DNA of 64,000 bases from the sequence record OQ990040; one strand, 5' to 3'. The DNA comes from Escherichia phage SUT_E520. Made by a program: the position numbers and the translations under genes. The notes beneath the pieces are model-generated. The model made no database searches, had not been told where the DNA came from, and was given only the letters and a program-made list of their open reading frames with translations. The first letter of the stretch is position 1, and the number at the start of each line of letters is the position of its first letter. This document shows positions 16,664 through 54,927 of this stretch, one piece after another.

Positions 16664-17077
16664 TTAAACTAGTTCGACATGACCGCCATCATAGGTACCA
16701 CGTTTTATTTCGTCGTGATAATCTCCCGAAGCATTCCAATCAGCACCAAAACGAAGTTTAATGCCTAGTTCTTTACCCGCTTGTTCAAAAGCCTTTTTAA
16801 CTGCCCAAAATGCTTCTAAATCATTCCAATCAATTTTGCCATTAATGTATGGAGCAAAATCAAGGGCATCCCCAGTAATATGCTTGCTTTTACTAGGATC
16901 TTTTAAAAATGAAGTACCATTAGCAATATTCTGGGCACTTTGTGCTACTGTACGAATACCCTGTACGATCGTGAAATCATATGGAGATAATTCTAAAGCT
17001 CTACGAGCTACTTTTTGTAGCTCTGGCTTAACGGTAGCTAATTGTTTTTCGCTATTTTTACCAAATTTAAAACTCAT
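16664..17077 (-). CDS. lys: endolysin, L-alanyl-D-glutamate peptidase (T5 Lys-like)
   Basis: 137 aa; sequence MSFKFGKNSEKQLATVKPELQKVARRALELSPYDFTIVQGIRT matches my recollection of T5 endolysin. Confidence 0.7.
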   Translation of the reverse strand: MSFKFGKNSEKQLATVKPELQKVARRALELSPYDFTIVQGIRTVAQSAQNIANGTSFLKDPSKSKHITGDALDFAPYINGKIDWNDLEAFWAVKKAFEQAGKELGIKLRFGADWNASGDYHDEIKRGTYDGGHVELV

Positions 17078-17730
17078 ATTGATCTACCTAAAGATCTCTG
17101 TTGTGGGGAACAGAGCTTTGTTAAATATTCCTTAAATTTCTCAGAATCGGCTGCATCTACAGGATTATCTTTCCAAGCAATACCAATATATCCAGCATAG
17201 ATATTGTTTAGATTGAAATATGGACAAGTGTATATGTAATTAAAAGTAACGTTCTTAAACGCAGGTATATTTAACCCCGTATATTTATTTACTCTTACAC
17301 TTAAATCCGATGCGTAGTTAAAGCCCTCTAAGTGACGTCTGTATAGCTCAGACGTTTTATTTACTGCTTTATCGGCCAAGTCAGCCCTATCTAATTGCGC
17401 ATTGCTTTCCCATGCAATAATGTTAGAATAATCATTAATGGCATCGGGTTTATACTTGACTACAAAAACAGCATCCGCACCCGTTTGAGAAAAGAGTACC
17501 ATGCTCTTTTCTCTAGCTACATTAGGAAAGTTATCTATCCTTTGAGTTTGAACATCCTGTAGAACCGCAGACGTGGAGAAAGTCTTTAAGAATGACATCA
17601 CCTCGCTAGTATTACTAACAAATAAGAAAATAATGATAGCAACTAAGATAGTTAGCAGACGTTTAAGAAGTGATGCTGGATCTTTCGCTTCTTGGAGCAG
17701 TACCGTTAATAATTGTAAGAACTTTTCCAA
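17074..17730 (-). CDS. holin-like membrane protein (T5 holin-like), overlaps endolysin start
   Basis: 218 aa; N-terminal TM LTILVAIIIFLFV; gene order holin then endolysin with 4-nt overlap. Confidence 0.5.
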   Translation of the reverse strand: MEKFLQLLTVLLQEAKDPASLLKRLLTILVAIIIFLFVSNTSEVMSFLKTFSTSAVLQDVQTQRIDNFPNVAREKSMVLFSQTGADAVFVVKYKPDAINDYSNIIAWESNAQLDRADLADKAVNKTSELYRRHLEGFNYASDLSVRVNKYTGLNIPAFKNVTFNYIYTCPYFNLNNIYAGYIGIAWKDNPVDAADSEKFKEYLTKLCSPQQRSLGRSI

Positions 17731-18498: not shown

Positions 18499-19251
18499 TT
18501 ATCCAACTAGTGGTTCTAGCTCTAAGTCACAGAAGTTATAAACTTCTAGTTTAAGGTTATTGATACCATCGAATTTATTAACTAATTCGTGAGTAATATA
18601 TTTTGCAGGAATACCACTTTCAGATGGATGATCTGATTTAATAGTGAACTTCTGCTCAGCGGGTACTACATTTACTATCAAAGAATCCATATCTAAATGG
18701 TTTGTTTCTCTGAGTAACTCTCCTTCATTGGGGAATCTAACATCTGTTATTACGGCGACATCTGGGTCGTCTTTAGCGATGGATTGCTCCAGAATTATGA
18801 GCCAAATGCGTTCATGCACCAGCTGCCTTCCTAGCTCTGTCCCTACGAGCTGTAACATTTTTCTCGGAGAAATAAATAAGCTATAAAGACCGTCTTCTTT
18901 ATTCTCTGATATAAGTTGTTGAGGATTAAGATATTTTTCCTCAAAAATAGGCCAAACGTACGAGAAGTCTTCAAACTTATCGATACCGTACTTAAACCAC
19001 ACATCCCTGGCTCGTTCCAACTGAGATTGTGTGACCGTAAACCATTGGTCAATCTCTTTTCCCCTGCGCTCTCCTAGAAACTCTGGAGTTACACCGAGGA
19101 TTACGGATGCAAGTTCATAAACGGGCTTAGCAAAACTATAACGACGAGATAAACACGTTGGATACGTGTCATTACACCAATCGATAATTAATTTTGCAAC
19201 GGTATCTTTTCCCGAACCAGCTTCACCATGTAAACCGACTAATACTGACAT
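18499..19251 (-). CDS. dnk: deoxynucleoside monophosphate kinase
   Basis: P-loop GLHGEAGSGKDT; size 250 aa. Confidence 0.6.
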   Translation of the reverse strand: MSVLVGLHGEAGSGKDTVAKLIIDWCNDTYPTCLSRRYSFAKPVYELASVILGVTPEFLGERRGKEIDQWFTVTQSQLERARDVWFKYGIDKFEDFSYVWPIFEEKYLNPQQLISENKEDGLYSLFISPRKMLQLVGTELGRQLVHERIWLIILEQSIAKDDPDVAVITDVRFPNEGELLRETNHLDMDSLIVNVVPAEQKFTIKSDHPSESGIPAKYITHELVNKFDGINNLKLEVYNFCDLELEPLVG

Positions 19252-19604
19252 TAATCTTTCCTATTGTTAATTGGTGGATAGTAAACTAAGCAACGTTTTT
19301 CTTGTAAATCTTGACGATAGAAGCAGACCATACCAGTCAGTCGTGAAATGTAAGAGTAAACTGCTTCCTCACATTTTGCTTTTGCATTCCAATCTTTGTA
19401 TGGTATAACAACTACTACGCCATCTTCTCCATTTGTAGCTAATTTCTTTTCAAACTTAAAGTCAAAGCTACAAGGTTGAAGTCCTTTAGGCCAGTCTACA
19501 TGAGCTTGCTTTAACTCATGAGATGGCTCTGGTTTTATTTCTTCTGCACAGCCTGTGATTGTGATTGTGGCTGCGAGCAGTACTCCAAGTTTCCAGTTAA
19601 ACAC
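19251..19604 (-). CDS. outer-membrane lipoprotein, o-spanin candidate
   Basis: signal peptide with lipobox ITGC; overlaps 3' end of upstream i-spanin-like gene by 70 nt. Confidence 0.45.
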   Translation of the reverse strand: MFNWKLGVLLAATITITGCAEEIKPEPSHELKQAHVDWPKGLQPCSFDFKFEKKLATNGEDGVVVVIPYKDWNAKAKCEEAVYSYISRLTGMVCFYRQDLQEKRCLVYYPPINNRKD

Positions 19605-19984
19605 GCTAATCTTTCCTCGAACTCTTTATTCTGCTTTTTAGCAATCAATGTTACCAATCCAGGTTTTGCAGCGATAACATCTTGACGACTAAGAGCTTTA
19701 TCTAGCTGCTTAATCTTTTTGTCTAGATCTGCTTGAGAAATATTATTCATCGTGAAATACTGATTCATTCTAGTCTCACGAAGTTCACTTTCAGCTTTCA
19801 CCTTATTAAGGGAAGTCTCTAGAGAAGAGATCTTTTTAGTAGCTACTGCAAGATCTCCCGCTAAAGTCTCCACTTTATCTACTAAGTGATAAGCACCGAA
19901 TCCGATGCCTATCGCTAGACCTGCTCCCAGGATATACCACTTACCGTGCCATATTCCTGAAAGAAGTTTTTGTATCAAATCCAT
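19535..19984 (-). CDS. inner-membrane coiled-coil protein, i-spanin candidate
   Basis: N-terminal TM WYILGAGLAIGIGFGAYHLV then coiled-coil. Confidence 0.45.
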   Translation of the reverse strand: MDLIQKLLSGIWHGKWYILGAGLAIGIGFGAYHLVDKVETLAGDLAVATKKISSLETSLNKVKAESELRETRMNQYFTMNNISQADLDKKIKQLDKALSRQDVIAAKPGLVTLIAKKQNKEFEERLACLTGNLEYCSQPQSQSQAVQKK

Positions 19985-35700: not shown

Positions 35701-36497
35701 TTTAAGTATTTTTAAGAACTCTCGTAAAAACTCTTAAAAATACAGACGATACCGGGAGAGTCATAAGTCTCACTCATTAAGTATTTCAAGACAAAATACA
35801 GTAACGTCTATTATTTTCCAGTTTAAGTCAGGGTGACTTAGTGGTTATGTCCTGCGGTATATTGAGGACTCGGTTAGGCTTGGGGTCATGACTTCCCACC
35901 TTTTGCTGCTACTCAACAGGAGTTATCGCGAATTACCTGTGCTATTGTGCACCATTAGTGACATCTCTCATGTCAGCATTTCCCACTTTGTGGATAGCTT
36001 GAAAAACTACTCCGATATGGAGAAAGAACTTCACTATCCTAGAATACCTTCTAAAGTTCTTCTTTAGCCTGGACATAGTTAAATCGTAATAAAACTATTC
36101 AGCAGACTGGTTGGTTAGTCTGGAACCAACTACCGCGTGGTTTAGGCAGTGCGCAACTAACCTCGGAAGCTTTTATGTTAAAAGCATCAGTTATCCAGTT
36201 CTTACCGACCGTAGGATTCGAACCTACATCTTCCACCAGTTACGGCTTGATAATACCAATTATACTAGGACGGCAGTGTTACTACATAAGTGATTTCCAC
36301 ACCCCACTATTTATAAATCAGAGAAGAGTTTAGGGGAGAGGTTTCAGACGCCTCATTTTACACGTTCTAGCCACTAACCGGGATTGCCGCCCCCTGTGTA
36401 CTAGTTTTACAACTAACCCACCGACTCTATTCAATGCGCTCCGGTTGGGATTCTGCACTCAGCGTAATCGGCTCGCTGTTCCCTAATTTATGAATAT

Positions 36498-36526
36498 ATT
36501 ATACAGAATTTATAAGCATTTAGCAA
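36498..36526 (-). promoter_or_regulatory. T5-type early sigma70 promoter reading into the noncoding leader and tRNA-Arg
   Basis: revcomp of 36521-36526 is TTGCTA; revcomp of 36498-36503 is TATAAT; 17-bp spacer. Confidence 0.6.
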
Positions 36527-36534
36527 ATGAATTT

Positions 36535-36969
36535 TTAGAAAAATTCACTAGCAATCAAAGCAGTTGTTTTACCGTCATAACGTCCGGGAAATTCTGCCTT
36601 AATAGTTTTCATTAATAGAGCTTTGGTAATACCTGGGTTTAATTTAACCAGTTCTGCAAAATACTCACGAATCTGAACCTCAGTCAGTTGACTTGGCTGA
36701 TACTCTTGCAGCATGGAATAAAGCAGTTGCTCATAGTCTACATCAGTAGGAACTTCCATACCAACTTTAATAGCGCGTTGTTTTGCATTTTCTAGAGCCT
36801 TAATCTGAGCTTTCAGATAGGCTACGAACTCGGTTCGAGTAACAATGTCTTTATCAATACGTTGCAGATCACCAATCATGGTCTGAAGATTAAGTGCCCG
36901 TTCCTTATCACCGTGAGTACGTGCTAGACTAAGTAGTCCACGAAGGGTCATTAGAATATTTTCACCCAT
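36535..36969 (-). CDS. hypothetical protein (144 aa)
   Basis: ORF in gene string. Confidence 0.45.
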   Translation of the reverse strand: MGENILMTLRGLLSLARTHGDKERALNLQTMIGDLQRIDKDIVTRTEFVAYLKAQIKALENAKQRAIKVGMEVPTDVDYEQLLYSMLQEYQPSQLTEVQIREYFAELVKLNPGITKALLMKTIKAEFPGRYDGKTTALIASEFF

Positions 36970-37170
36970 TATTTCATCCCCAATGCTTGGTTAAAAGATT
37001 GTTCTGTCATAACTGCTGAGACTTTGGCGAAATCAAACTTTTTAGGGTTCGTAGTTATTTCAGCAACGTTAGAAGTTTTAACAGTTTTCGTAGTACGAAT
37101 ACCGCGAGTGTTAACACCAATAATTACAACTGATTTCATATTTCGCTTCCTCTCATTAATTTATGAAAGT

Positions 37171-37199
37171 ATTATACAGAAATTTAAGTAGCTAAGCAA
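37171..37199 (-). promoter_or_regulatory. T5-type early sigma70 promoter (minus strand)
   Basis: revcomp of 37194-37199 is TTGCTT; revcomp of 37171-37176 is TATAAT. Confidence 0.55.
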
Positions 37200-37207
37200 G
37201 TAAATTT

Positions 37208-37675
37208 TTAAGTTTTAGTGACAACAGGTTTATAGAATGTATGTCCCTTAATCTTAGTTGTTTTCTTAAACTTCTTTGTCCAGTAAGGTTTATCTTTACC
37301 ACTATGGAAGTATAGTGCTCCATATGTAGGATCTTGTGGTAAATCAACGTAGTATATCACTCTAGCTAAATTCTTAGCGGTTTGCCAAGCCTCATCAGTT
37401 TTATCAACTTTTGGTCTCTTAGATACCCAAGAGAACTGGTTAGACTGATATACTACTTTACAGTAGGAATCTGGGAATTTACCGGAGTTTACACGGTTTT
37501 TAGTAACATGTGCAATCGCCGTCATTCCCTTTATGCCCTCACCACGACTTTCGAAATAGATATTTTTAGCAATGCAATCTATTTCTTTTGCATCGTGCGA
37601 TGCCTGACTACTAAAGCTGAAGGTAAGGGCAGCTACTAAAAGCAAAGCTGCCTTCATTCTTTTTACTCCTGCCAA
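37208..37675 (-). CDS. secreted SleB/CwlJ-like cell-wall hydrolase
   Basis: signal peptide MKAALLLVAALTFSFSSQA; YFESRGEGIKGMTAIAHVTKNRV...FP...QSNQFSW matches the Hydrolase_2 (SleB) pattern. Confidence 0.55.
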   Translation of the reverse strand: MAGVKRMKAALLLVAALTFSFSSQASHDAKEIDCIAKNIYFESRGEGIKGMTAIAHVTKNRVNSGKFPDSYCKVVYQSNQFSWVSKRPKVDKTDEAWQTAKNLARVIYYVDLPQDPTYGALYFHSGKDKPYWTKKFKKTTKIKGHTFYKPVVTKT

Positions 37676-37980
37676 TCATATTCAACACGATTGGGATTTT
37701 CTTTATACCCTAAGTCAAGCAAATCATTACGCATATTTTGCTTAGCTACTGGGTTCGAGGTTACTAGTACCACTTTCTTTGGTCTCTGCCCAAATTCTAA
37801 GAGTAAACGAAGAATTTGATAACCTTCCATACCATCTACAGCCAAGTCATTATCCATATAAACGAAATGGCCGGTGGTATCAGTTTTATTCAGAAACTCT
37901 ACAGCGGCTTCTGGGGTTCGAATGATAATGTCCATTCCGTGAAGATTACGCACATCATCAATCAAAATATGAAAAGTCAT
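37663..37980 (-). CDS. stand-alone receiver (REC, CheY-like) domain protein candidate
   Basis: ILIDDV, VYMDNDLAVDGMEGYQILRLL and KKVVLVTSN align with REC acidic pocket, phospho-Asp and Thr/Lys regions; overlaps downstream hydrolase gene by 13 nt. Confidence 0.4.
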   Translation of the reverse strand: MTFHILIDDVRNLHGMDIIIRTPEAAVEFLNKTDTTGHFVYMDNDLAVDGMEGYQILRLLLEFGQRPKKVVLVTSNPVAKQNMRNDLLDLGYKENPNRVEYDWQE

Positions 37981-38430
37981 AATAGCCTCGTTTCATCAAT
38001 TTAAAAATATATTATACAGATAACTTAGTAACTTAGTAAATTAGCAAATACATTTTTAAATTGTGAAACTAGTAAACCGATAAACAGCCTAGAGGCGCCA
38101 CAGGCCATATCTTATGAGCCATGTACCTTTGATCTAGGGTTTGAATCATCAACGAATACTTTGCATCTTTTAGCTTTAGAAGTTTAGAAGTTTGAGTTCT
38201 TTAAACTTTTCAGCTTTCATACTTAAATGTTGATCTTTGAAGTTGTGTCGGTAATATCAACGACGCTTTGTTCTTACGTGTCAGCTTAAAAGGCTGGTGT
38301 AATAAACATAATCTCCAATAGATTATACTTTATAGTATGGTCAGCGGTCTTATTTAACCCCGTATTTCAACCGCTGCTGCGAGGTAAGATGCTTGGGCTT
38401 TCGTCTACCGATTTACTAGCTTTTAAATTA

Positions 38431-39069
38431 TTACTCTACTTCAATGAAGGTAGAGGCGTTAGACTCGGACAGAACAAAGTCAACATTTGTTGCAAAGTCC
38501 TGGTATTCCTCGTCATGCTGCTTAATCAACTTCTCCAGTTCCAGCGGATCAATCAAGAATGGAGTATTCTTGAGTTCCAGCAGGTTGAGTTGCATTTTAA
38601 CTTCATCTTCGGAAGTTTTCTTATCACGGGTAGCCATGCTATCCTGCAAACGCTCATATTTAGCATCAAACTGTGCTTTCTGCGTATTAAACTTAACCGT
38701 AGCGGCATGGAACTGCTTACGCATGTTAGCCAGCAGTTGAGCTTTAAGCTCCATAGAACGCTTAGCTTCAATTGCTTCCGCAACAGTCATTTTACGAGAA
38801 CCGATCTCAACGATTGTTTCTGCATTGCTCTTAATCAGAGCAGATTTAATACGATCACGCTGAGACATCATATCCAGCAGAGACTGGAAATCAGTCTTAA
38901 TACGAGTAGACAGATCAGCTACTTCGATTGCAGCGCCAACTACAACCTGGTTTTTATCCTTACCTTCACCAACAGCGATCAGAAGCTGCTGTTCAGTAGC
39001 TTTACGGATTTTAGCTTCCAGAGATTTGATAGTTGCTAGAGCGCGAGTTTTAGAAATACGAGTAGTCAT
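38431..39069 (-). CDS. hypothetical coiled-coil protein (212 aa)
   Basis: AGGAAA RBS before ATG at 39069. Confidence 0.45.
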   Translation of the reverse strand: MTTRISKTRALATIKSLEAKIRKATEQQLLIAVGEGKDKNQVVVGAAIEVADLSTRIKTDFQSLLDMMSQRDRIKSALIKSNAETIVEIGSRKMTVAEAIEAKRSMELKAQLLANMRKQFHAATVKFNTQKAQFDAKYERLQDSMATRDKKTSEDEVKMQLNLLELKNTPFLIDPLELEKLIKQHDEEYQDFATNVDFVLSESNASTFIEVE

Positions 39070-39375: not shown

Positions 39376-40077
39376 TCAAATTTTCATTTTTTCGATCATA
39401 GCTGCAACACAATAGCTTTCAACTAAGGCATCAAATGCAGGATCATGCTTAACCGGATAGATCCCATAACGAATGGTGTCCATCTTCTCCATTTTAGCTT
39501 TTGCCCAGCTAATACCTTCAGCCTCTAGATCTTTGTAACTATAATCAGCTTGCATCCAGAGATTACGAAGAGATCGAACATTGCCCAAATTCCAGAATTT
39601 CCACGGAACTACCTCTTCATTGGTTCCAGCATGGAATGTGTTTGCAGAGTAGATAGTCATATCAAACTCTGGGCCATTACCATAATACAAAGCATTTTCG
39701 CCTAGAGCCAACTCCATAATATTTTGAGCCATAGAGAAGGCAGCATAGTTTGAGCCAAATTTATTAGTGCAATGATGTTTACCATTTTGGAAGGCAATCA
39801 GTTTTGGATTACGTTCCTTCATAGCTTCCATAATGTGAATAGCAGACGGGCTATTTTTAGCTTGATCCATCCAGAATGCTAGAGTAGATGCTGTAACTTT
39901 AGCACCAGAATTAAGCTGATCTTGTACATCCAAAGTAACAAATACTAGATCAGGGTCTTTATCAATTCCATGCATAGCCACAAAAGCGAAAGAAGGCATT
40001 GCGATATGAGTAGTACCACAATCTCCTGGAGTTCCCAGAGATTCAATATCTAGCATACCAAATGGTTTTACTTTCAT
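39376..40077 (-). CDS. DEDDh 3'-5' exonuclease (DnaQ/RNase T-like)
   Basis: Exo I motif MLDIESLG and Exo III motif HDPAFDALVES. Confidence 0.55.
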   Translation of the reverse strand: MKVKPFGMLDIESLGTPGDCGTTHIAMPSFAFVAMHGIDKDPDLVFVTLDVQDQLNSGAKVTASTLAFWMDQAKNSPSAIHIMEAMKERNPKLIAFQNGKHHCTNKFGSNYAAFSMAQNIMELALGENALYYGNGPEFDMTIYSANTFHAGTNEEVVPWKFWNLGNVRSLRNLWMQADYSYKDLEAEGISWAKAKMEKMDTIRYGIYPVKHDPAFDALVESYCVAAMIEKMKI

Positions 40078-41254: not shown

Positions 41255-41704
41255 TTAATTTATTAACTGTAAGCTTCTTTTAATTTCAGACCTTACTTGC
41301 ATCAAAAGGACTCCTAAAGTATTATCCCCGATGCCTCGGCAAACACCCCAATATGTATCTCCCCAGGTATTTCCTTCGATCAAAGTTGCATTTTCTGTTG
41401 CTAACAGTTTATCTCTTAAATCAGGAATTGCAAACTTTAATCGTAAAAGCTCTAGCATTACATCATCTTTTACTTTATCCCAGTCAGAGCGTAGGGTTAA
41501 TTTACGTCCTCTACGTTTAGCAACTCCTGCATTTAGGGAGCGGAGTACATGAGCTACATCATCTTTTTGGTCGGATTTCATAGCCTGAAAAGCATGTTCT
41601 ACAGTATCAGCATGCCATATCTCATTTAGATATTCGAAAGTAATTGGTGATAAATAAAAGTTAGATAAGAAACTATAAGTACCTTTAAATTCAGTAATCT
41701 TCAT
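41255..41704 (-). CDS. NADAR/YbiA-like protein (DUF1768)
   Basis: FLSNFY, VEHAFQAMK and WGDTYWG...GDNTLGVLLMQVR match E. coli YbiA motifs FSNFA, SEHYFQAQK, WGDG...GKNRLGYLLMELR. Confidence 0.6.
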   Translation of the reverse strand: MKITEFKGTYSFLSNFYLSPITFEYLNEIWHADTVEHAFQAMKSDQKDDVAHVLRSLNAGVAKRRGRKLTLRSDWDKVKDDVMLELLRLKFAIPDLRDKLLATENATLIEGNTWGDTYWGVCRGIGDNTLGVLLMQVRSEIKRSLQLIN

Positions 41705-52606: not shown

Positions 52607-52796
52607 GGGTTTAAACGCCGCTTTGGAAAACGCATTAATGCAGCACTGGGAAACTGGCTATAAGGATGGTGTTGAATCCTGCGCTACTATGCTAGAAGTT
52701 ATTGCTAATACCTTAATGGAGAAAGGCAATAAAGAATTAGCTGAGCTATTAGACAGTATTGGGCAAAACTTCAGAGAACAGGTGAAAAATGCGTAG
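52575..52796 (+). CDS. hypothetical protein (73 aa)
   Basis: ORF in operon. Confidence 0.4.
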   Translation: MAFSKPMLPDKGLNAALENALMQHWETGYKDGVESCATMLEVIANTLMEKGNKELAELLDSIGQNFREQVKNA

Positions 52797-53604
52797 ATTA
52801 ATTGTTATTAGCGGTGCAGGTTTGAGTGTTGAAAGTGGTGTACGAGCTTTTCGTACTGATACTGCTAGTGGTAAAGCATTGTGGGATGATTATGATCTAG
52901 AAGAAGTATGTAATATTCATGCCTTTCGTGGTAATTTTTATCATAAAACCCATATGTTTTACAACAAGCGTCGTGAAGAGCTAAAAACTGTTGAACCCAA
53001 TCTTGCGCATTTGCGTATCGGTGAATGGTATAAACAATATCCAGGTCAAGTAGTAAACTTGACTACCAACGTTGATGACCTTATTGAGCGTTCTGGCGTT
53101 CCACATAATGACATTCTACACATTCATGGATATTTAAAAGAGGTTGTTGTAGCTGATAGCTACAATAGTAGCAATAAACGGATTATTGATGTAGGATACA
53201 ATTCTATTGATCCAGATGATTATAAATGGGTTAAACCTAATGTAATCTTCTTTGGAGAGCATGCTCCAGCATATGCGGAGATGTACAATGTTTTTGATGG
53301 TATTACCAGTCAAGATATGATCATTGTGGTTGGTTGCTCTAACCAAGTAATTAACTTCTACTGGGAATTATTTCCTGTTCTTAATTTGACTGCTGCCAAG
53401 CTAATGGTTGTTAACTACTATGATAGTGCCCTAGCGGCGGAACCGAGCTATCAAGGTATGACTCGTAGTGAGATGTACCAGCTGGAAGAACGCGGTATCC
53501 CTTACTGGGGTAAAGGTGCGGTAGATGCTTTCAGTGATCCTGATTTTATTGCTCGTGTAGAAGCTCATTTAGGGGGTAGACCTTATGTGTCAGGAAATAA
53601 GTAA
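52789..53604 (+). CDS. Sir2-family (sirtuin-like) NAD-dependent protein
   Basis: ISGAGLSVESGVRAFR, TTNVDDL, HIHG, KPNVIFFGE and IVVGCS match sirtuin NAD-binding and catalytic motifs; no Zn-Cys4 module seen. Confidence 0.6.
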   Translation: MRRLIVISGAGLSVESGVRAFRTDTASGKALWDDYDLEEVCNIHAFRGNFYHKTHMFYNKRREELKTVEPNLAHLRIGEWYKQYPGQVVNLTTNVDDLIERSGVPHNDILHIHGYLKEVVVADSYNSSNKRIIDVGYNSIDPDDYKWVKPNVIFFGEHAPAYAEMYNVFDGITSQDMIIVVGCSNQVINFYWELFPVLNLTAAKLMVVNYYDSALAAEPSYQGMTRSEMYQLEERGIPYWGKGAVDAFSDPDFIARVEAHLGGRPYVSGNK

Positions 53605-54097
53605 TACTCCAATTATTTTTCTAGACATTGATGGGGTGCTCAATTCGAGCATCTCCCACTATCATGCACCTGATGATGAAAAGATTTTCTTTGGAAGTGA
53701 TTGGGTTTTCAAACCGCTTCTCAAGGCTTTTCAGGACTTTATTCGTCCTTCTCCAATAATGATTGTTGGAGTATCATCTTGGTTCTCTGTCAGAAATGAG
53801 ATGGAGAACGTTCAGATTATGACCGGATTAGGCCTTATCGATCGTTTTCTTGGTACAACGGATTTTACTGGTGGTGGATTATCTAGGGGTAATTCTGTTC
53901 TTCGCTTCGTTGAAAAGCATAAGCTCAAACATTGGTGTGTGCTTGATGATGCGGGTGCTATGATGTATCAGTATCCAACGGTTATAGTCAACGGTAGGAC
54001 TGGTATAAATCTTCAAGATTTAAAAGCTGTTAGCTATATGCTAGAATTTAGCCCAGATCTTGAAATGTGTAAATCCTTACAACAATTTAAGGTGTAA
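53585..54097 (+). CDS. HAD-like hydrolase/phosphatase
   Basis: motif I IIFLDIDGVLNS; later VLDDAG-like motif; overlaps Sir2 stop. Confidence 0.5.
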   Translation: MCQEISNTPIIFLDIDGVLNSSISHYHAPDDEKIFFGSDWVFKPLLKAFQDFIRPSPIMIVGVSSWFSVRNEMENVQIMTGLGLIDRFLGTTDFTGGGLSRGNSVLRFVEKHKLKHWCVLDDAGAMMYQYPTVIVNGRTGINLQDLKAVSYMLEFSPDLEMCKSLQQFKV

Positions 54098-54099
54098 AT

Positions 54100-54528
54100 A
54101 TGTTCAATAATGTATTCTCTAAAGAAGCTAACCCAATTTTGGTTAACTTTTGGCGTACTCTTCCAGCTAGCCTGTATAATGAGGCTATTAACTCTTTGAA
54201 AATATGGTGTGAGAATAACGAAATCTACTTTGCTTTTAAAGATGATATTGATGAAGCCCCCTGTATTGGTTTAATTGTTCAGGTAGAGGAGGGTCTTGAA
54301 GAGATTGTCGGCTGGAAAGAGTTAGATGAAATGGGCTTAGTTTTTGCGTTAAACTATAAGCTGTTTATGCCTGCTAAGCATCGCCTCGTTGTTAACTATA
54401 AAACTAGTGAATCTCCTGGTTTTCAAGTTAATGAACGTTACGGTTGGTCTTACTCACCAGAAGAAGTGAATGATGGTATCCAAAAACTTCGCCGTTTCGG
54501 GTATATGATCCCAGGTTTAACTGCTTAA
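54100..54528 (+). CDS. hypothetical protein, tandem paralog A (142 aa)
   Basis: shares D(E/D)xPCIG, W.EL..MGL..ALN..LF.P and IPGL/VPGL with paralog B. Confidence 0.5.
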   Translation: MFNNVFSKEANPILVNFWRTLPASLYNEAINSLKIWCENNEIYFAFKDDIDEAPCIGLIVQVEEGLEEIVGWKELDEMGLVFALNYKLFMPAKHRLVVNYKTSESPGFQVNERYGWSYSPEEVNDGIQKLRRFGYMIPGLTA

Positions 54529-54537
54529 GGAGGCAGA

Positions 54538-54927
54538 ATGGAACAAGTATATTGGCGTCAGATTGACCCTAGTTTGGTGAAACGTGCGGAGAAGCTGCTA
54601 CAACGTTGGTTGGGGGTAAGACAAGCCTCCTTCACTTTTCCTGAGCAGCAAATAGATGATCCATGCATTGGCGTTTTCCTGTCTGGATACGCCAGGGAAT
54701 GGGAACTGGATTGGAATGAGTTGTCTGCTATGGGTTTAATTGTTGCCCTAAATTTCTCTTTGTTCCATCCACGTGGTTTTGCCATATGTCGTGTGCCGGA
54801 TGATGGTTGTTCGCCCCATCTTTTACAGGTGGAAAATGATATTTGGGAGTACACTCCAGATATTCTCAAAGAAGCTAAAGAACAATTAAACCGTGTTGGG
54901 ATATATGTTCCGGGATTAAATGACTAA
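54538..54927 (+). CDS. hypothetical protein, tandem paralog B (129 aa)
   Basis: AAGGAGG RBS; paralogous to 54100-54528. Confidence 0.5.
   Translation: MEQVYWRQIDPSLVKRAEKLLQRWLGVRQASFTFPEQQIDDPCIGVFLSGYAREWELDWNELSAMGLIVALNFSLFHPRGFAICRVPDDGCSPHLLQVENDIWEYTPDILKEAKEQLNRVGIYVPGLND

What the first reader, a model, noticed from the sequence alone, without database searches (positions are those of the whole stretch)
37208..37980. Translationally coupled REC-like protein and secreted SleB-like hydrolase
A 105-aa ORF with the hallmarks of a stand-alone receiver domain overlaps by 13 nt a gene for a signal-peptide-bearing SleB/CwlJ-like cell-wall hydrolase. This is distinct from the holin/endolysin/spanin cluster 20 kb away. 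A phage orphan receiver domain is unusual and could titrate a host phosphorelay; the exported hydrolase could act at entry or as an auxiliary lysis factor.
Basis: partly seen in the sequence, partly recalled or inferred. Interest (0 to 1): 0.5.

Follow-up and report, generated by a model that had tools for sequence, protein, structure and literature searches.

The report
T5 cREC gene beside exported hydrolase
These are two already catalogued early genes of a T5-like coliphage: a small receiver-fold protein of the phage "cREC" family, predicted to process cyclic phosphates rather than to signal, and next to it a secreted SleB-type cell-wall hydrolase; they are neighbours by lineage-specific gene order and show no sign of being a functional pair.

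Summary
The window is a T5-like phage (Tequintavirus), 100% identical over this region to Escherichia phage SUT_E1520. Both ORFs are real and lie on the minus strand.

- **Receiver-like gene.** 37663..37980 is T5.084, a 105-aa stand-alone protein. Its AlphaFold model (pLDDT 94) matches response-regulator receiver domains. By sequence it belongs to Pfam PF20274 (cREC), not to classic Response_reg.
  - It keeps the Asp pocket and the Thr.
  - It lacks helix α1, helix α5 and the conserved Lys.
  - The family is common in phages and, per the literature, never paired with histidine kinases.
- **Hydrolase gene.** 37208..37657 is T5.083, a Hydrolase_2 (SleB/CwlJ catalytic domain) protein. It has a conserved Sec-type signal peptide, the catalytic Glu and an invariant Cys pair.
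- **Gene junction.** The 13-nt overlap exists only if a TTG start is used. The conserved ATG start, with a GGAG ribosome-binding site, leaves a 5-nt gap.
- **Linkage.** The two genes are adjacent only in T5-like phages. Relatives have a homing endonuclease between them or 2–3 kb of other genes, and distant cREC genes have no hydrolase nearby.
- **Fitness.** The table of a published T5 knock-down screen scores both genes "Not Fit".

Phosphorelay titration is therefore unsupported. The pair is ordinary. The only open question is the untested biochemistry of cREC.

The parts
37663..37980 (-). cREC gene (homologue of T5.084), 105 aa, stand-alone truncated receiver-fold protein
37208..37657 (-). 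Exported Hydrolase_2 (SleB/CwlJ catalytic-domain) gene (homologue of T5.083), 149 aa from the ATG start
   Evidence: PF07486 3.8e-25 and phrog_938. phmmer to SleB 4f55 3.6e-8. AF2 pLDDT 91.1. Foldseek hits only SleB catalytic domains, TM 0.62-0.79. Invariant E36, C28, C66.
37601..37657 (-). Predicted Sec signal peptide (residues 1-19, MKAALLLVAALTFSFSSQA, cleavage after SQA)
   Evidence: Hydrophobic core with Kyte-Doolittle score above 2 over residues 1-16, and small residues at -3/-1. The same n/h/c pattern occurs in most homologues listed. SignalP was not available, so this is a rule-based inference.
37658..37675 (-). Gene junction: alternative TTG start at 37675 (source of the reported 13-nt overlap), GGAG ribosome-binding site at 37666-37669, cREC stop codon at 37663-37665, and a 5-nt spacer at 37658-37662
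   Evidence: Sequence. Deposited annotations use the ATG at 37657.
38011..38040 (-). Sigma-70-like promoter (TTTACT-18-TATAAT) upstream of the cREC gene; no terminator-like site between the two genes
   Evidence: Consensus scan, 10 of 12 matches. The T5 record annotates a promoter at the equivalent position, directly upstream of T5.084.

Best explanation
Two functionally independent early genes of a T5-like phage are co-transcribed from one early promoter. They are adjacent only because of Markadamsvirinae gene order.

**Gene 1 (37663..37980)** encodes a stand-alone cREC domain.
- It is a cut-down receiver fold: five β-strands and three helices, with no α1 and no α5.
- It keeps the Asp cluster at the ends of strands β1 and β3, and the Thr/Ser after β4.
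- It has family-specific conserved residues R11, R21, D45 and N76, and no catalytic-site Lys.
- The most likely function is inferred from the family-level prediction of Iyer, Burroughs and Aravind, not shown. It would be a small phosphoesterase that opens cyclic phosphates.
- Candidate substrates are 2',3'-cyclic-phosphate RNA (tRNA) ends left by metal-independent host nucleases, and ADP-ribose 1'',2''-cyclic phosphate.
- It would work with other RNA-end and NAD/ADPr enzymes scattered in the same genome: a SIR2 plus HAD_SAK_2 phosphatase pair, NADAR, an Rv2179c-like 3'-5' exoribonuclease, and more than 21 phage tRNA genes.
- That would make it a conditional counter-defence or RNA-repair function.

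**Gene 2 (37208..37657)** encodes a Sec-exported periplasmic peptidoglycan hydrolase.
- It consists of a SleB-type catalytic domain only, which in SleB is a lytic transglycosylase.
- It probably has one disulfide (C28-C66).
- It most likely acts as a holin-independent accessory muralytic enzyme that weakens or remodels the sacculus and assists lysis.
- It is not the main endolysin.
For: **Identity of the phage and the genes**
- The region is 100% identical to Escherichia phage SUT_E1520, and the genes correspond to T5.084 and T5.083.

**cREC membership and fold**
- hhalign against CheY places D43 on D57, T74 on T87 and N95 on K109.
- D8, D43, D45 and N76 are invariant, D9, R11 and R21 are >=90% conserved, and no Lys is conserved.

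**Family-level function prediction**
- It comes from PMC7824862 and PMC9503650.
- Those papers also state that cREC is never found with histidine kinases and is experimentally uncharacterised.

**Genome context found here**
- SIR2 at 52789..53604 with HAD_SAK_2 at 53585..54097. This matches the 'SP15-type' pair in PMC9503650.
- NADAR at 41255..41704.
- An Rv2179c-like exoribonuclease at 39376..40077.
- 21 tRNA genes.
- In one unrelated contig, cREC lies within 4 kb of a WYL regulator and SIR2.
- NADAR is two genes from cREC in L009.
- An Rv2179c-like gene is also near cREC in L010, L011 and L012.

**Independence of the two genes**
- Falkor has an HNH gene between them.
- In My1 they are 2.8 kb apart.
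- In L009 they are 2.2 kb apart, and the hydrolase has its own ribosome-binding site and a -10-like element upstream.
- Nine further, more distant cREC contexts have no Hydrolase_2 nearby.
- Hydrolase_2 occurs in 1,376 phage records against 493 for cREC.

**Hydrolase**
- Sequence, structure, conserved-residue and signal-peptide evidence.
- A signal-peptide SleB-like protein (CR3_087) has been implicated in lysis, and its CB7 homologue is toxic when expressed in E. coli (PMC7344957).

**Accessory status**
- The CRISPRi-ART data table scores T5.083 and T5.084 'Not Fit' (PMC11879866 supplement).
Against: - No cREC protein has been tested biochemically. The cyclic-phosphate activity is a prediction from gene neighbourhoods.
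- In this window cREC is not adjacent to SIR2/HAD_SAK_2 (about 15 kb away).
- No RNA ligase or polynucleotide kinase was seen in the annotations read, so a complete heal-and-seal pathway is missing.
- Most distant stand-alone cREC genes sit among uncharacterised small phage genes with no informative neighbours.
- The longer cREC proteins checked carry no recognisable fused domain, so the published Nudix fusions were not reproduced in my sample.
- For the hydrolase, an early-expressed exported muralytic enzyme would need some restraint to avoid premature lysis. None was identified.
- The substrate bond and the cleavage of the signal peptide are both inferred.
- One sentence of the CRISPRi-ART supplementary text lists T5.084 as 'Fit'. 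This contradicts that paper's own table and its list of 17 Fit genes.
Confidence: 0.6

Rival explanations
1. Phosphorelay decoy. The stand-alone receiver accepts phosphoryl groups from host histidine kinases or HPt proteins, or from acetyl phosphate. It would then act as a phosphate sink that rewires host two-component signalling.
For: - Receiver fold.
- Asp residues at the positions of CheY D12/D13 (inferred from their position at the end of β1) and D57, plus Thr at T87.
- Weak Response_reg hit, E = 0.17.
- Single-domain receivers acting as phosphate sinks are known in bacteria (my knowledge).
Against: - Helices α1 and α5 are missing, and the K109-equivalent position is Asn.
- The conserved extra residues R11, R21, D45 and N76 are not receiver hallmarks.
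- The family is reported never to occur with histidine kinases (PMC7824862).
- It is spread across phages of many hosts (Vibrio, Aeromonas, Klebsiella, Pectobacterium), which argues against a target in one host's kinase set.
- Knock-down gives no fitness effect in the data table.
Confidence: 0.05
2. Anti-signalling protein. The cREC protein degrades or sequesters host immune second messengers, such as cyclic ADPR isomers from Thoeris or cyclic oligonucleotides with cyclic-phosphate ends. It would not be repairing RNA ends.
For: - The original prediction explicitly includes cADPr and cyclic nucleotides as substrates (PMC7824862).
- cREC lies next to a WYL regulator and SIR2 in L099.
- The protein is small and stand-alone, like known phage sponges and phosphodiesterases (my knowledge).
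- It is non-essential in a laboratory host.
- NADAR is present in the same gene block.
Against: - No experimental data exist.
- No hit in PADLOC.
- The T5-like genome context leans towards RNA-end processing: a HAD_SAK_2 'RNA repair' phosphatase, an exoribonuclease and a tRNA cluster.
Confidence: 0.2
3. Coupled module. cREC and the exported hydrolase form a functional pair, translationally coupled, with cREC controlling or timing the hydrolase.
For: - The two genes share a strand and a promoter, with only 5 nt between them.
- The hydrolase's ribosome-binding site lies inside the cREC coding sequence.
- Adjacency is conserved across most Markadamsvirinae and in a relative with a 50%-identical cREC.
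Against: - Adjacency is broken by a homing endonuclease in falkor, and by 2-3 kb of genes in My1 and L009, where the hydrolase has its own ribosome-binding site (and, in L009, a -10-like element).
- Spacing varies: 5, 12 and 19 nt.
- The two proteins work in different compartments, cytoplasm and periplasm.
- No hydrolase lies near cREC in nine more distant contexts.
- Hydrolase_2 is far more widespread in phages than cREC.
Confidence: 0.05
4. The hydrolase is a virion-associated entry enzyme that digests peptidoglycan during DNA injection.
For: Hydrolase_2 domains occur in many phage genomes, some with non-canonical lysis organisation.
Against: - It has a cleavable-type Sec signal peptide and no other domain.
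- It lies in the early region under a sigma-70 early promoter, far from the structural genes.
- Export to the periplasm is incompatible with assembly into cytoplasmic virions (inference).
Confidence: 0.03

Closest known systems
cREC (cyclic-phosphate processing receiver) domain family, Pfam PF20274, described by Iyer/Burroughs/Aravind (PMC7824862, PMC9503650)
   Same: - Above-threshold Pfam match (56.8 bits against a cutoff of 27).
- About 100-aa stand-alone phage protein.
- Conserved Asp pair and Asp after β3.
- No histidine kinase nearby.
- Same genome carries SIR2, HAD_SAK_2 and NADAR.
- Some records and UniRef already give this exact protein the family name.
   Different: - In T5-like phages it is not adjacent to an RNA ligase, Nudix, sirtuin or WYL gene.
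- Its immediate neighbour is a cell-wall hydrolase, an association not described for the family and shown here to be lineage-specific.
Classic two-component receiver domains (CheY, Spo0F; Pfam PF00072)
   Same: - Asp at the phospho-acceptor position and Thr at the T87 position.
   Different: - No α1, no α5 and no conserved Lys.
- Only E = 0.17 to PF00072.
- Extra conserved Arg and Asn residues.
- No kinase partner.
SleB / CwlJ spore-cortex lytic enzymes of Bacillus (PDB 4f55, 4fet; TIGR02869)
   Same: - Same catalytic-domain fold (TM up to 0.79).
- The YxESRGE motif with its Glu is conserved.
   Different: - No N-terminal peptidoglycan-binding domain.
- Scores 50 bits against an equivalog cutoff of 236.5.
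- Has a Sec signal peptide and a conserved Cys pair that is absent from the SleB chains in the pairwise alignment.
- Its host makes no spore cortex or muramic-δ-lactam, so substrate specificity must differ.
Signal-peptide SleB-like lysins of Vequintavirinae/Certrevirus phages (CB7_83, CR3_087; PMC7344957)
   Same: Hydrolase_2 domain with a signal peptide in a phage of Gram-negative hosts. These are reported to be toxic on expression (CB7_83) or implicated in lysis (CR3_087).
   Different: - Those phages appear to use it as the main endolysin, with a candidate holin next to it.
- The T5-like phage has a separate M15 endolysin/holin cassette, with ORFs at the spanin position 20 kb away.
- Knock-down of T5.083 gives no fitness cost.

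Membership tests
cREC (PF20274) | Sequence match to the family model above the curated threshold | tested here: met
   56.8 bits against a cutoff of 27, E = 3.8e-15, covering model positions 2-86 of 88.
cREC (PF20274) | Divergent receiver (Rossmannoid α/β) fold | tested here: met
   [not shown]
cREC (PF20274) | Conserved catalytic aspartates shared with receiver domains | tested here: met
   D8, D43 and D45 are invariant and D9 is >=90% conserved in 98 sequences. D43 aligns to CheY D57.
cREC (PF20274) | Never associated with histidine kinases; linked to NAD/ADPr or RNA-end processing genes | tested here: inconclusive
   - No kinase appears in any of the roughly 14 contexts read.
- SIR2, HAD_SAK_2, NADAR and an exoribonuclease are in the same genome, but mostly not adjacent.
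- SIR2 and WYL lie within 4 kb in L099.
- Most other contexts are uninformative.
cREC (PF20274) | Cyclic-phosphate phosphoesterase activity | not testable with these tools
   This is a prediction only. The papers state that the family is experimentally uncharacterised.
Two-component receiver (PF00072) | Sequence match above the gathering score | tested here: not met
   12.5 bits against a cutoff of 30.2, E = 0.17.
Two-component receiver (PF00072) | Full (βα)5 fold with α1 and α5 | tested here: not met
   DSSP of the model shows a 10-residue loop where α1 should be, and no helix after the last strand.
Two-component receiver (PF00072) | Conserved active-site quintet: two Asp, the acceptor Asp, Thr/Ser and Lys | tested here: not met
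   The Asp residues and Thr are present, but the Lys is absent. The CheY K109 position aligns to N95, and no Lys is conserved in the family.
Two-component receiver (PF00072) | Cognate histidine kinase or HPt partner | tested here: not met
   None was seen in the phage annotations read or in related loci. The literature says never.
Hydrolase_2 / SleB-CwlJ catalytic domain (PF07486) | Sequence and fold match to the catalytic domain | tested here: met
   88.9 bits against a cutoff of 27. 4f55 at 3.6e-8. Foldseek TM 0.62-0.79 to 4f55/4fet only.
Hydrolase_2 / SleB-CwlJ catalytic domain (PF07486) | Catalytic Glu in the YxE(S/A)RGE motif | tested here: met
   E36 is invariant in 36 homologues and aligns with the SleB motif. 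Its catalytic role in SleB is from my knowledge of the structure papers.
SleB proper (TIGR02869 equivalog) | Full-length match including the N-terminal peptidoglycan-binding domain | tested here: not met
   50.4 bits against a cutoff of 236.5, and only model positions 79-201 match.
Sec-exported (signal-peptide) phage lysins | Cleavable N-terminal signal peptide and periplasmic location | tested here: inconclusive
   Rule-based n/h/c analysis, an AXA-like site and conservation in homologues all support it, as does the invariant Cys pair. SignalP and an export assay were not available.

The most novel reading that the evidence does not exclude
The T5 cREC protein is a new class of phage counter-defence enzyme. 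It would be a minimal receiver-fold phosphodiesterase that destroys cyclic-phosphate-containing immune signals or products, such as cyclic ADPR isomers, ADPr 1'',2''-cyclic phosphate, or 2',3'-cyclic-phosphate tRNA ends made by anticodon nucleases. That would give T5-like phages conditional protection that is invisible on laboratory hosts.
Probability: 0.2. Interest if true: 0.7.

Novelty: already known. Interest (0 to 1): 0.25.

Why it matters
As submitted, little is new. Both genes are catalogued in T5 and hundreds of relatives, and their adjacency has no demonstrated meaning.

The useful residue is that cREC is a widespread, purely predicted enzyme family: 4,790 representative clusters, present in the model phage T5. 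T5 is genetically tractable. A clean biochemical test of T5.084 would settle whether a receiver fold has been recruited as a cyclic-phosphate esterase. Plating a knock-out on hosts carrying tRNA-cleaving or NAD-based defences would test its role.

The exported SleB-type enzyme is a candidate holin-independent second lysin, of interest mainly to lysis and enzybiotic researchers.

Tried and rejected
- **PDB sequence search with the cREC profile.** The best hits were TALE repeat proteins (4osz, 4hpz). I rejected them as a short-motif repeat artefact. True receiver hits were only E of about 0.04-0.1.
- **Fused domains in longer cREC proteins.** I scanned 10 of them against Pfam to reproduce the reported Nudix and other fusions. 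None had a second recognisable domain.
- **NCBIfam and PADLOC scans of cREC.** No hits.
- **Rfam scan of the locus and its 450-nt upstream spacer.** Nothing relevant, only tRNA hits elsewhere and sub-threshold noise.
- **Terminator scan between and after the genes.** None found.
- **Literature search for T5.083/T5.084.**
  - The only functional data are in the CRISPRi-ART supplement.
  - The phiR2-01 paper does not mention the hydrolase.
- **TTG start and 13-nt overlap.** Considered and rejected in favour of the conserved ATG.
- **SAR-type rather than cleaved signal.** Considered, but it cannot be distinguished computationally here.
Full report
**What the window is.** The 4 kb around the finding is 100% identical to Escherichia phage SUT_E1520 and SUT_E420. 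It is more than 97% identical to many Tequintavirus (T5-like, Demerecviridae) genomes. The window carries 21 tRNA genes on the minus strand between 24350 and 35700. The two genes of the finding correspond to T5.084 and T5.083 of phage T5. They lie in the early region, with an annotated promoter directly upstream of T5.084 and another at the 3' end of T5.083.

**The observation.**
- Both ORFs exist on the minus strand: 37663..37980 (105 aa) and 37208..37675 (155 aa from a TTG start).
- The 13-nt overlap is exactly the difference between that TTG and the stop codon of the upstream gene.
- The minus-strand junction reads ...GAT TGG CAG GAG TAA AAAGA ATG AAG.... A GGAG lies 8 nt before an ATG at 37657. 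No ribosome-binding site precedes the TTG.
- Every deposited annotation I inspected starts the hydrolase at that ATG, giving 149 aa and a 5-nt gap.
- Almost all full-length homologues listed start with the same short basic N-terminus followed by a hydrophobic core.
- A consensus scan finds TTTACT-18-TATAAT at 38040..38011 upstream of the first gene, and no terminator-like site in 36400..38500.
- The genes are therefore real, co-oriented, closely spaced and probably co-transcribed. They do not overlap.

**The first gene.**
- It matches Pfam PF20274, cREC_REC ("cyclic-phosphate processing receiver domain"), at E = 3.8e-15. Its match to the classic Response_reg model is only E = 0.17, 12.5 bits against a cutoff of 30.2. 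It also matches phrog_1479, of unknown function.
- Some GenBank and UniRef entries already give this protein the cREC name.
- An AlphaFold model built on 98 diverse homologues is confident (pLDDT 93.9, pTM 0.85). It shows β1 (residues 4-7), a 10-residue loop, β2 (18-20), a helix (23-32), β3 (39-42), a helix (53-62), β4 (69-72), a helix (77-89) and a final strand (100-102).
- Compared with CheY, the helix after β1 (α1) and the last helix (α5) are missing.
- In the family alignment D8, D43, D45 and N76 are invariant. D9, R11, R21, G53 and P67 are at least 90% conserved. No Lys is conserved.
- A profile alignment to CheY is weak (E = 0.0034) but consistent with the model. It puts D43 on D57, T74 on T87 and N95 on K109.
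- No solved structure is a sequence relative. The top TALE hits are a repeat artefact.

**How common it is and what is said about it.**
- tblastn finds relatives in 493 of 50,697 phage records: T5-like phages of Salmonella and Escherichia, Pectobacterium phage My1, and about 50 Vibrio T4-like phages.
- A profile search of 1.84 billion representatives finds 4,790 clusters at E <= 1e-3. Nearly all are stand-alone proteins of about 100 aa.
- Viral structure neighbours include named cREC proteins of Aeromonas, Klebsiella and marine phages.
- The family was defined by comparative genomics (PMC7824862; PMC9503650).
  - It is linked to NAD/ADPr-processing and RNA-repair genes.
  - It is predicted to resolve 2',3'-cyclic phosphates of RNA or 1''-2'' cyclic ADPr.
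  - It occurs in up to 18% of jumbo phages.
  - It is explicitly "experimentally uncharacterized".
- I found no later experimental paper.

**The second gene.**
- It matches Pfam Hydrolase_2 at 3.8e-25 and the endolysin family phrog_938.
- phmmer hits only the SleB catalytic domains 4f55 and 4fet (3.6e-8), with YFESRGE aligned to YGESRGE.
- The AF2 model (pLDDT 91.1) matches only those two structures, at TM 0.62-0.79.
- It is not an equivalog of SleB. It scores 50 bits against a cutoff of 236.5, and only the C-terminal catalytic part of that model matches.
- Across 36 homologues E36, C28 and C66 are invariant. The Cys pair is absent from the SleB chains in the pairwise alignment. Together with export, this suggests a periplasmic disulfide.
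- Residues 1-19 (MKAALLLVAALTFSFSSQA) have a basic start, a hydrophobic core and small residues at -3/-1. The same architecture recurs in most homologues listed, despite sequence divergence.
- Chromosomal relatives exist in non-sporulating Proteobacteria such as Stappia, Pleomorphomonas and Phyllobacterium.
- The domain occurs in 1,376 phage records.
- For Vequintavirinae/Certrevirus phages, one paper reports the SleB-like protein as signal-peptide-bearing and toxic on expression. A Cronobacter phage homologue is implicated in lysis (PMC7344957).
- The extra "endolysin far from the holin" with a SleB domain has already been remarked on in T5-like Salmonella phages (PMC11180984). It was listed for phage AKFV33 in 2012 (PMC3326045).

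**Are the two genes a unit?** Comparative context says no.

| Phage or contig | Arrangement |
|---|---|
| Salmonella phage falkor (Epseptimavirus) | A 174-aa HNH homing endonuclease lies between the two genes |
| Escherichia phage SelmaRatti | 12-nt gap; the cREC gene is annotated as intein-containing |
| Metagenomic relative L010 (50% identical cREC) | 19-nt gap; the hydrolase has its own ribosome-binding site |
| Pectobacterium phage My1 | cREC is 2.8 kb and five genes upstream of the hydrolase |
| Contig L009 | 2.2 kb apart; the hydrolase has its own -10-like element and ribosome-binding site |
| Vibrio phage nt-1 and eight other distant cREC contexts | No Hydrolase_2 within 5 kb |

The tight spacing is therefore a feature of Markadamsvirinae gene order, in a region that is also a hot spot for homing endonucleases.

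**What does recur with cREC.**
- In the window itself, the same early block holds three related genes:
  - an Rv2179c-like 3'-5' exoribonuclease at 39376..40077, misnamed "metallopeptidase" in many records;
  - a NADAR gene at 41255..41704, absent from the T5 reference;
  - RNase H.
- About 15 kb away lie a SIR2 gene (52789..53604) and an overlapping HAD_SAK_2 "Swiss-army-knife RNA repair" phosphatase gene (53585..54097). [quoted passage not shown]
- NADAR lies two genes from cREC in L009.
- Rv2179c-like genes lie near cREC in L010 and in L011/L012.
- In L099, cREC is within 4 kb of a WYL-WCX regulator and SIR2, beside an integrase.
- This agrees with the published prediction, but it is not strong independent proof. 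Most other contexts are uninformative, and I saw no phage RNA ligase or polynucleotide kinase in the annotations read.

**Experimental hints.**
- In the CRISPRi-ART transcriptome-wide screen of T5 (PMC11879866), the data table scores both genes "Not Fit". T5.083 has mean fitness -3.97 (p = 0.73) and T5.084 has -4.20 (p = 0.88).
- Neither gene is in that paper's list of 17 Fit genes.
- One sentence of the supplementary text names T5.084 among "Fit" unknowns, which contradicts the table.
- Dispensability on a laboratory host fits accessory or conditional roles. It argues against the hydrolase being the main lysin.
- The main lysis genes are at 16664..17730 (M15-type endolysin and T-type holin). 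Two overlapping ORFs at 19251..19984 sit where a related phage is annotated with Rz-like spanins. They gave no Pfam hit here.

**Conclusion.**
The overlap is an artefact of start-codon choice, and the pairing is incidental.
- The phosphorelay-titration idea conflicts with the missing docking helix and Lys, and with the family's distribution.
- The best reading, part shown and part inferred:
  - T5.084 is a cREC-family minimal receiver-fold protein. Membership and fold are shown.
  - It probably acts as a cyclic-phosphate esterase in RNA-end or ADPr processing for counter-defence. This is inferred from family-level predictions and scattered genome context.
  - T5.083 is a Sec-exported SleB-type muralytic enzyme. 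Domain, catalytic Glu and signal-like N-terminus are shown. Export, bond specificity and an accessory lysis role are inferred.
- Nothing here is new to the databases. The open question is the untested biochemistry of cREC.

Noticed in passing
window 36203-36274 (-): A tRNA-like element scores above the Rfam gathering threshold (RF00005, 35.5 bits against 29) but was missed by ARAGORN. It lies inside the stretch that the T5 record annotates as 'RNAX, stable RNA with unknown functions'. Other records call it tRNA-OTHER.
   Followed up: partly
window 52789-54097 (+): An overlapping SIR2 (PF02146, 4e-24) and HAD_SAK_2 'Swiss Army Knife RNA repair' phosphatase (PF18143, 9e-20) gene pair. This is the sirtuin/HAD association that PMC9503650 predicts to clean up cyclic-phosphate RNA ends.
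   Followed up: partly
window 41255-41704 (-): A NADAR-domain gene (PF08719, 7e-22; weak hit to an NCBIfam 'NADAR family anti-phage protein' model). It is present in this phage and in T5_ev212, but absent from the T5 reference between T5.089 and T5.090, so it is an accessory gene.
   Followed up: partly
window 39376-40077 (-) and 38431-39069 (-): Likely misannotations that propagate through T5-like records. The 'putative metallopeptidase' (T5.087) matches the Rv2179c-like 3'-5' exoribonuclease family. The 'tail fiber protein' (T5.085) has no Pfam hit and sits in the early region.
   Followed up: partly
L007 3395-4847; L098 1985-3969: The cREC/hydrolase locus is a hot spot for homing endonucleases in relatives. 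Falkor has one HNH gene upstream of cREC and one between cREC and the hydrolase. SelmaRatti has a 273-aa 'intein-containing' cREC gene and a homing endonuclease just after the hydrolase.
   Followed up: partly
PMC11879866 supplementary files 1 and 16 (T5.084): Internal inconsistency in the published CRISPRi-ART T5 screen. The supplementary text once lists T5.084 (and T5.090) as 'Fit', while the data table and the paper's own list of 17 Fit genes score them 'Not Fit'.
   Followed up: yes
window 37981-38430: About 450 nt lie upstream of the cREC gene, before the next minus-strand gene, with no convincing ORF. No Rfam family matched. In falkor a homing endonuclease occupies the equivalent spacer.
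   Followed up: partly
window 54100-54927 (+): Two adjacent paralogous genes each carry two copies of DUF7415, directly downstream of the SIR2/HAD pair.
   Followed up: no
L099 5001-9901: In a non-T5 contig next to an integrase, a 161-aa cREC protein lies within 4 kb of a WYL-WCX regulator and a SIR2 gene. This independently echoes the published cREC associations.
   Followed up: no
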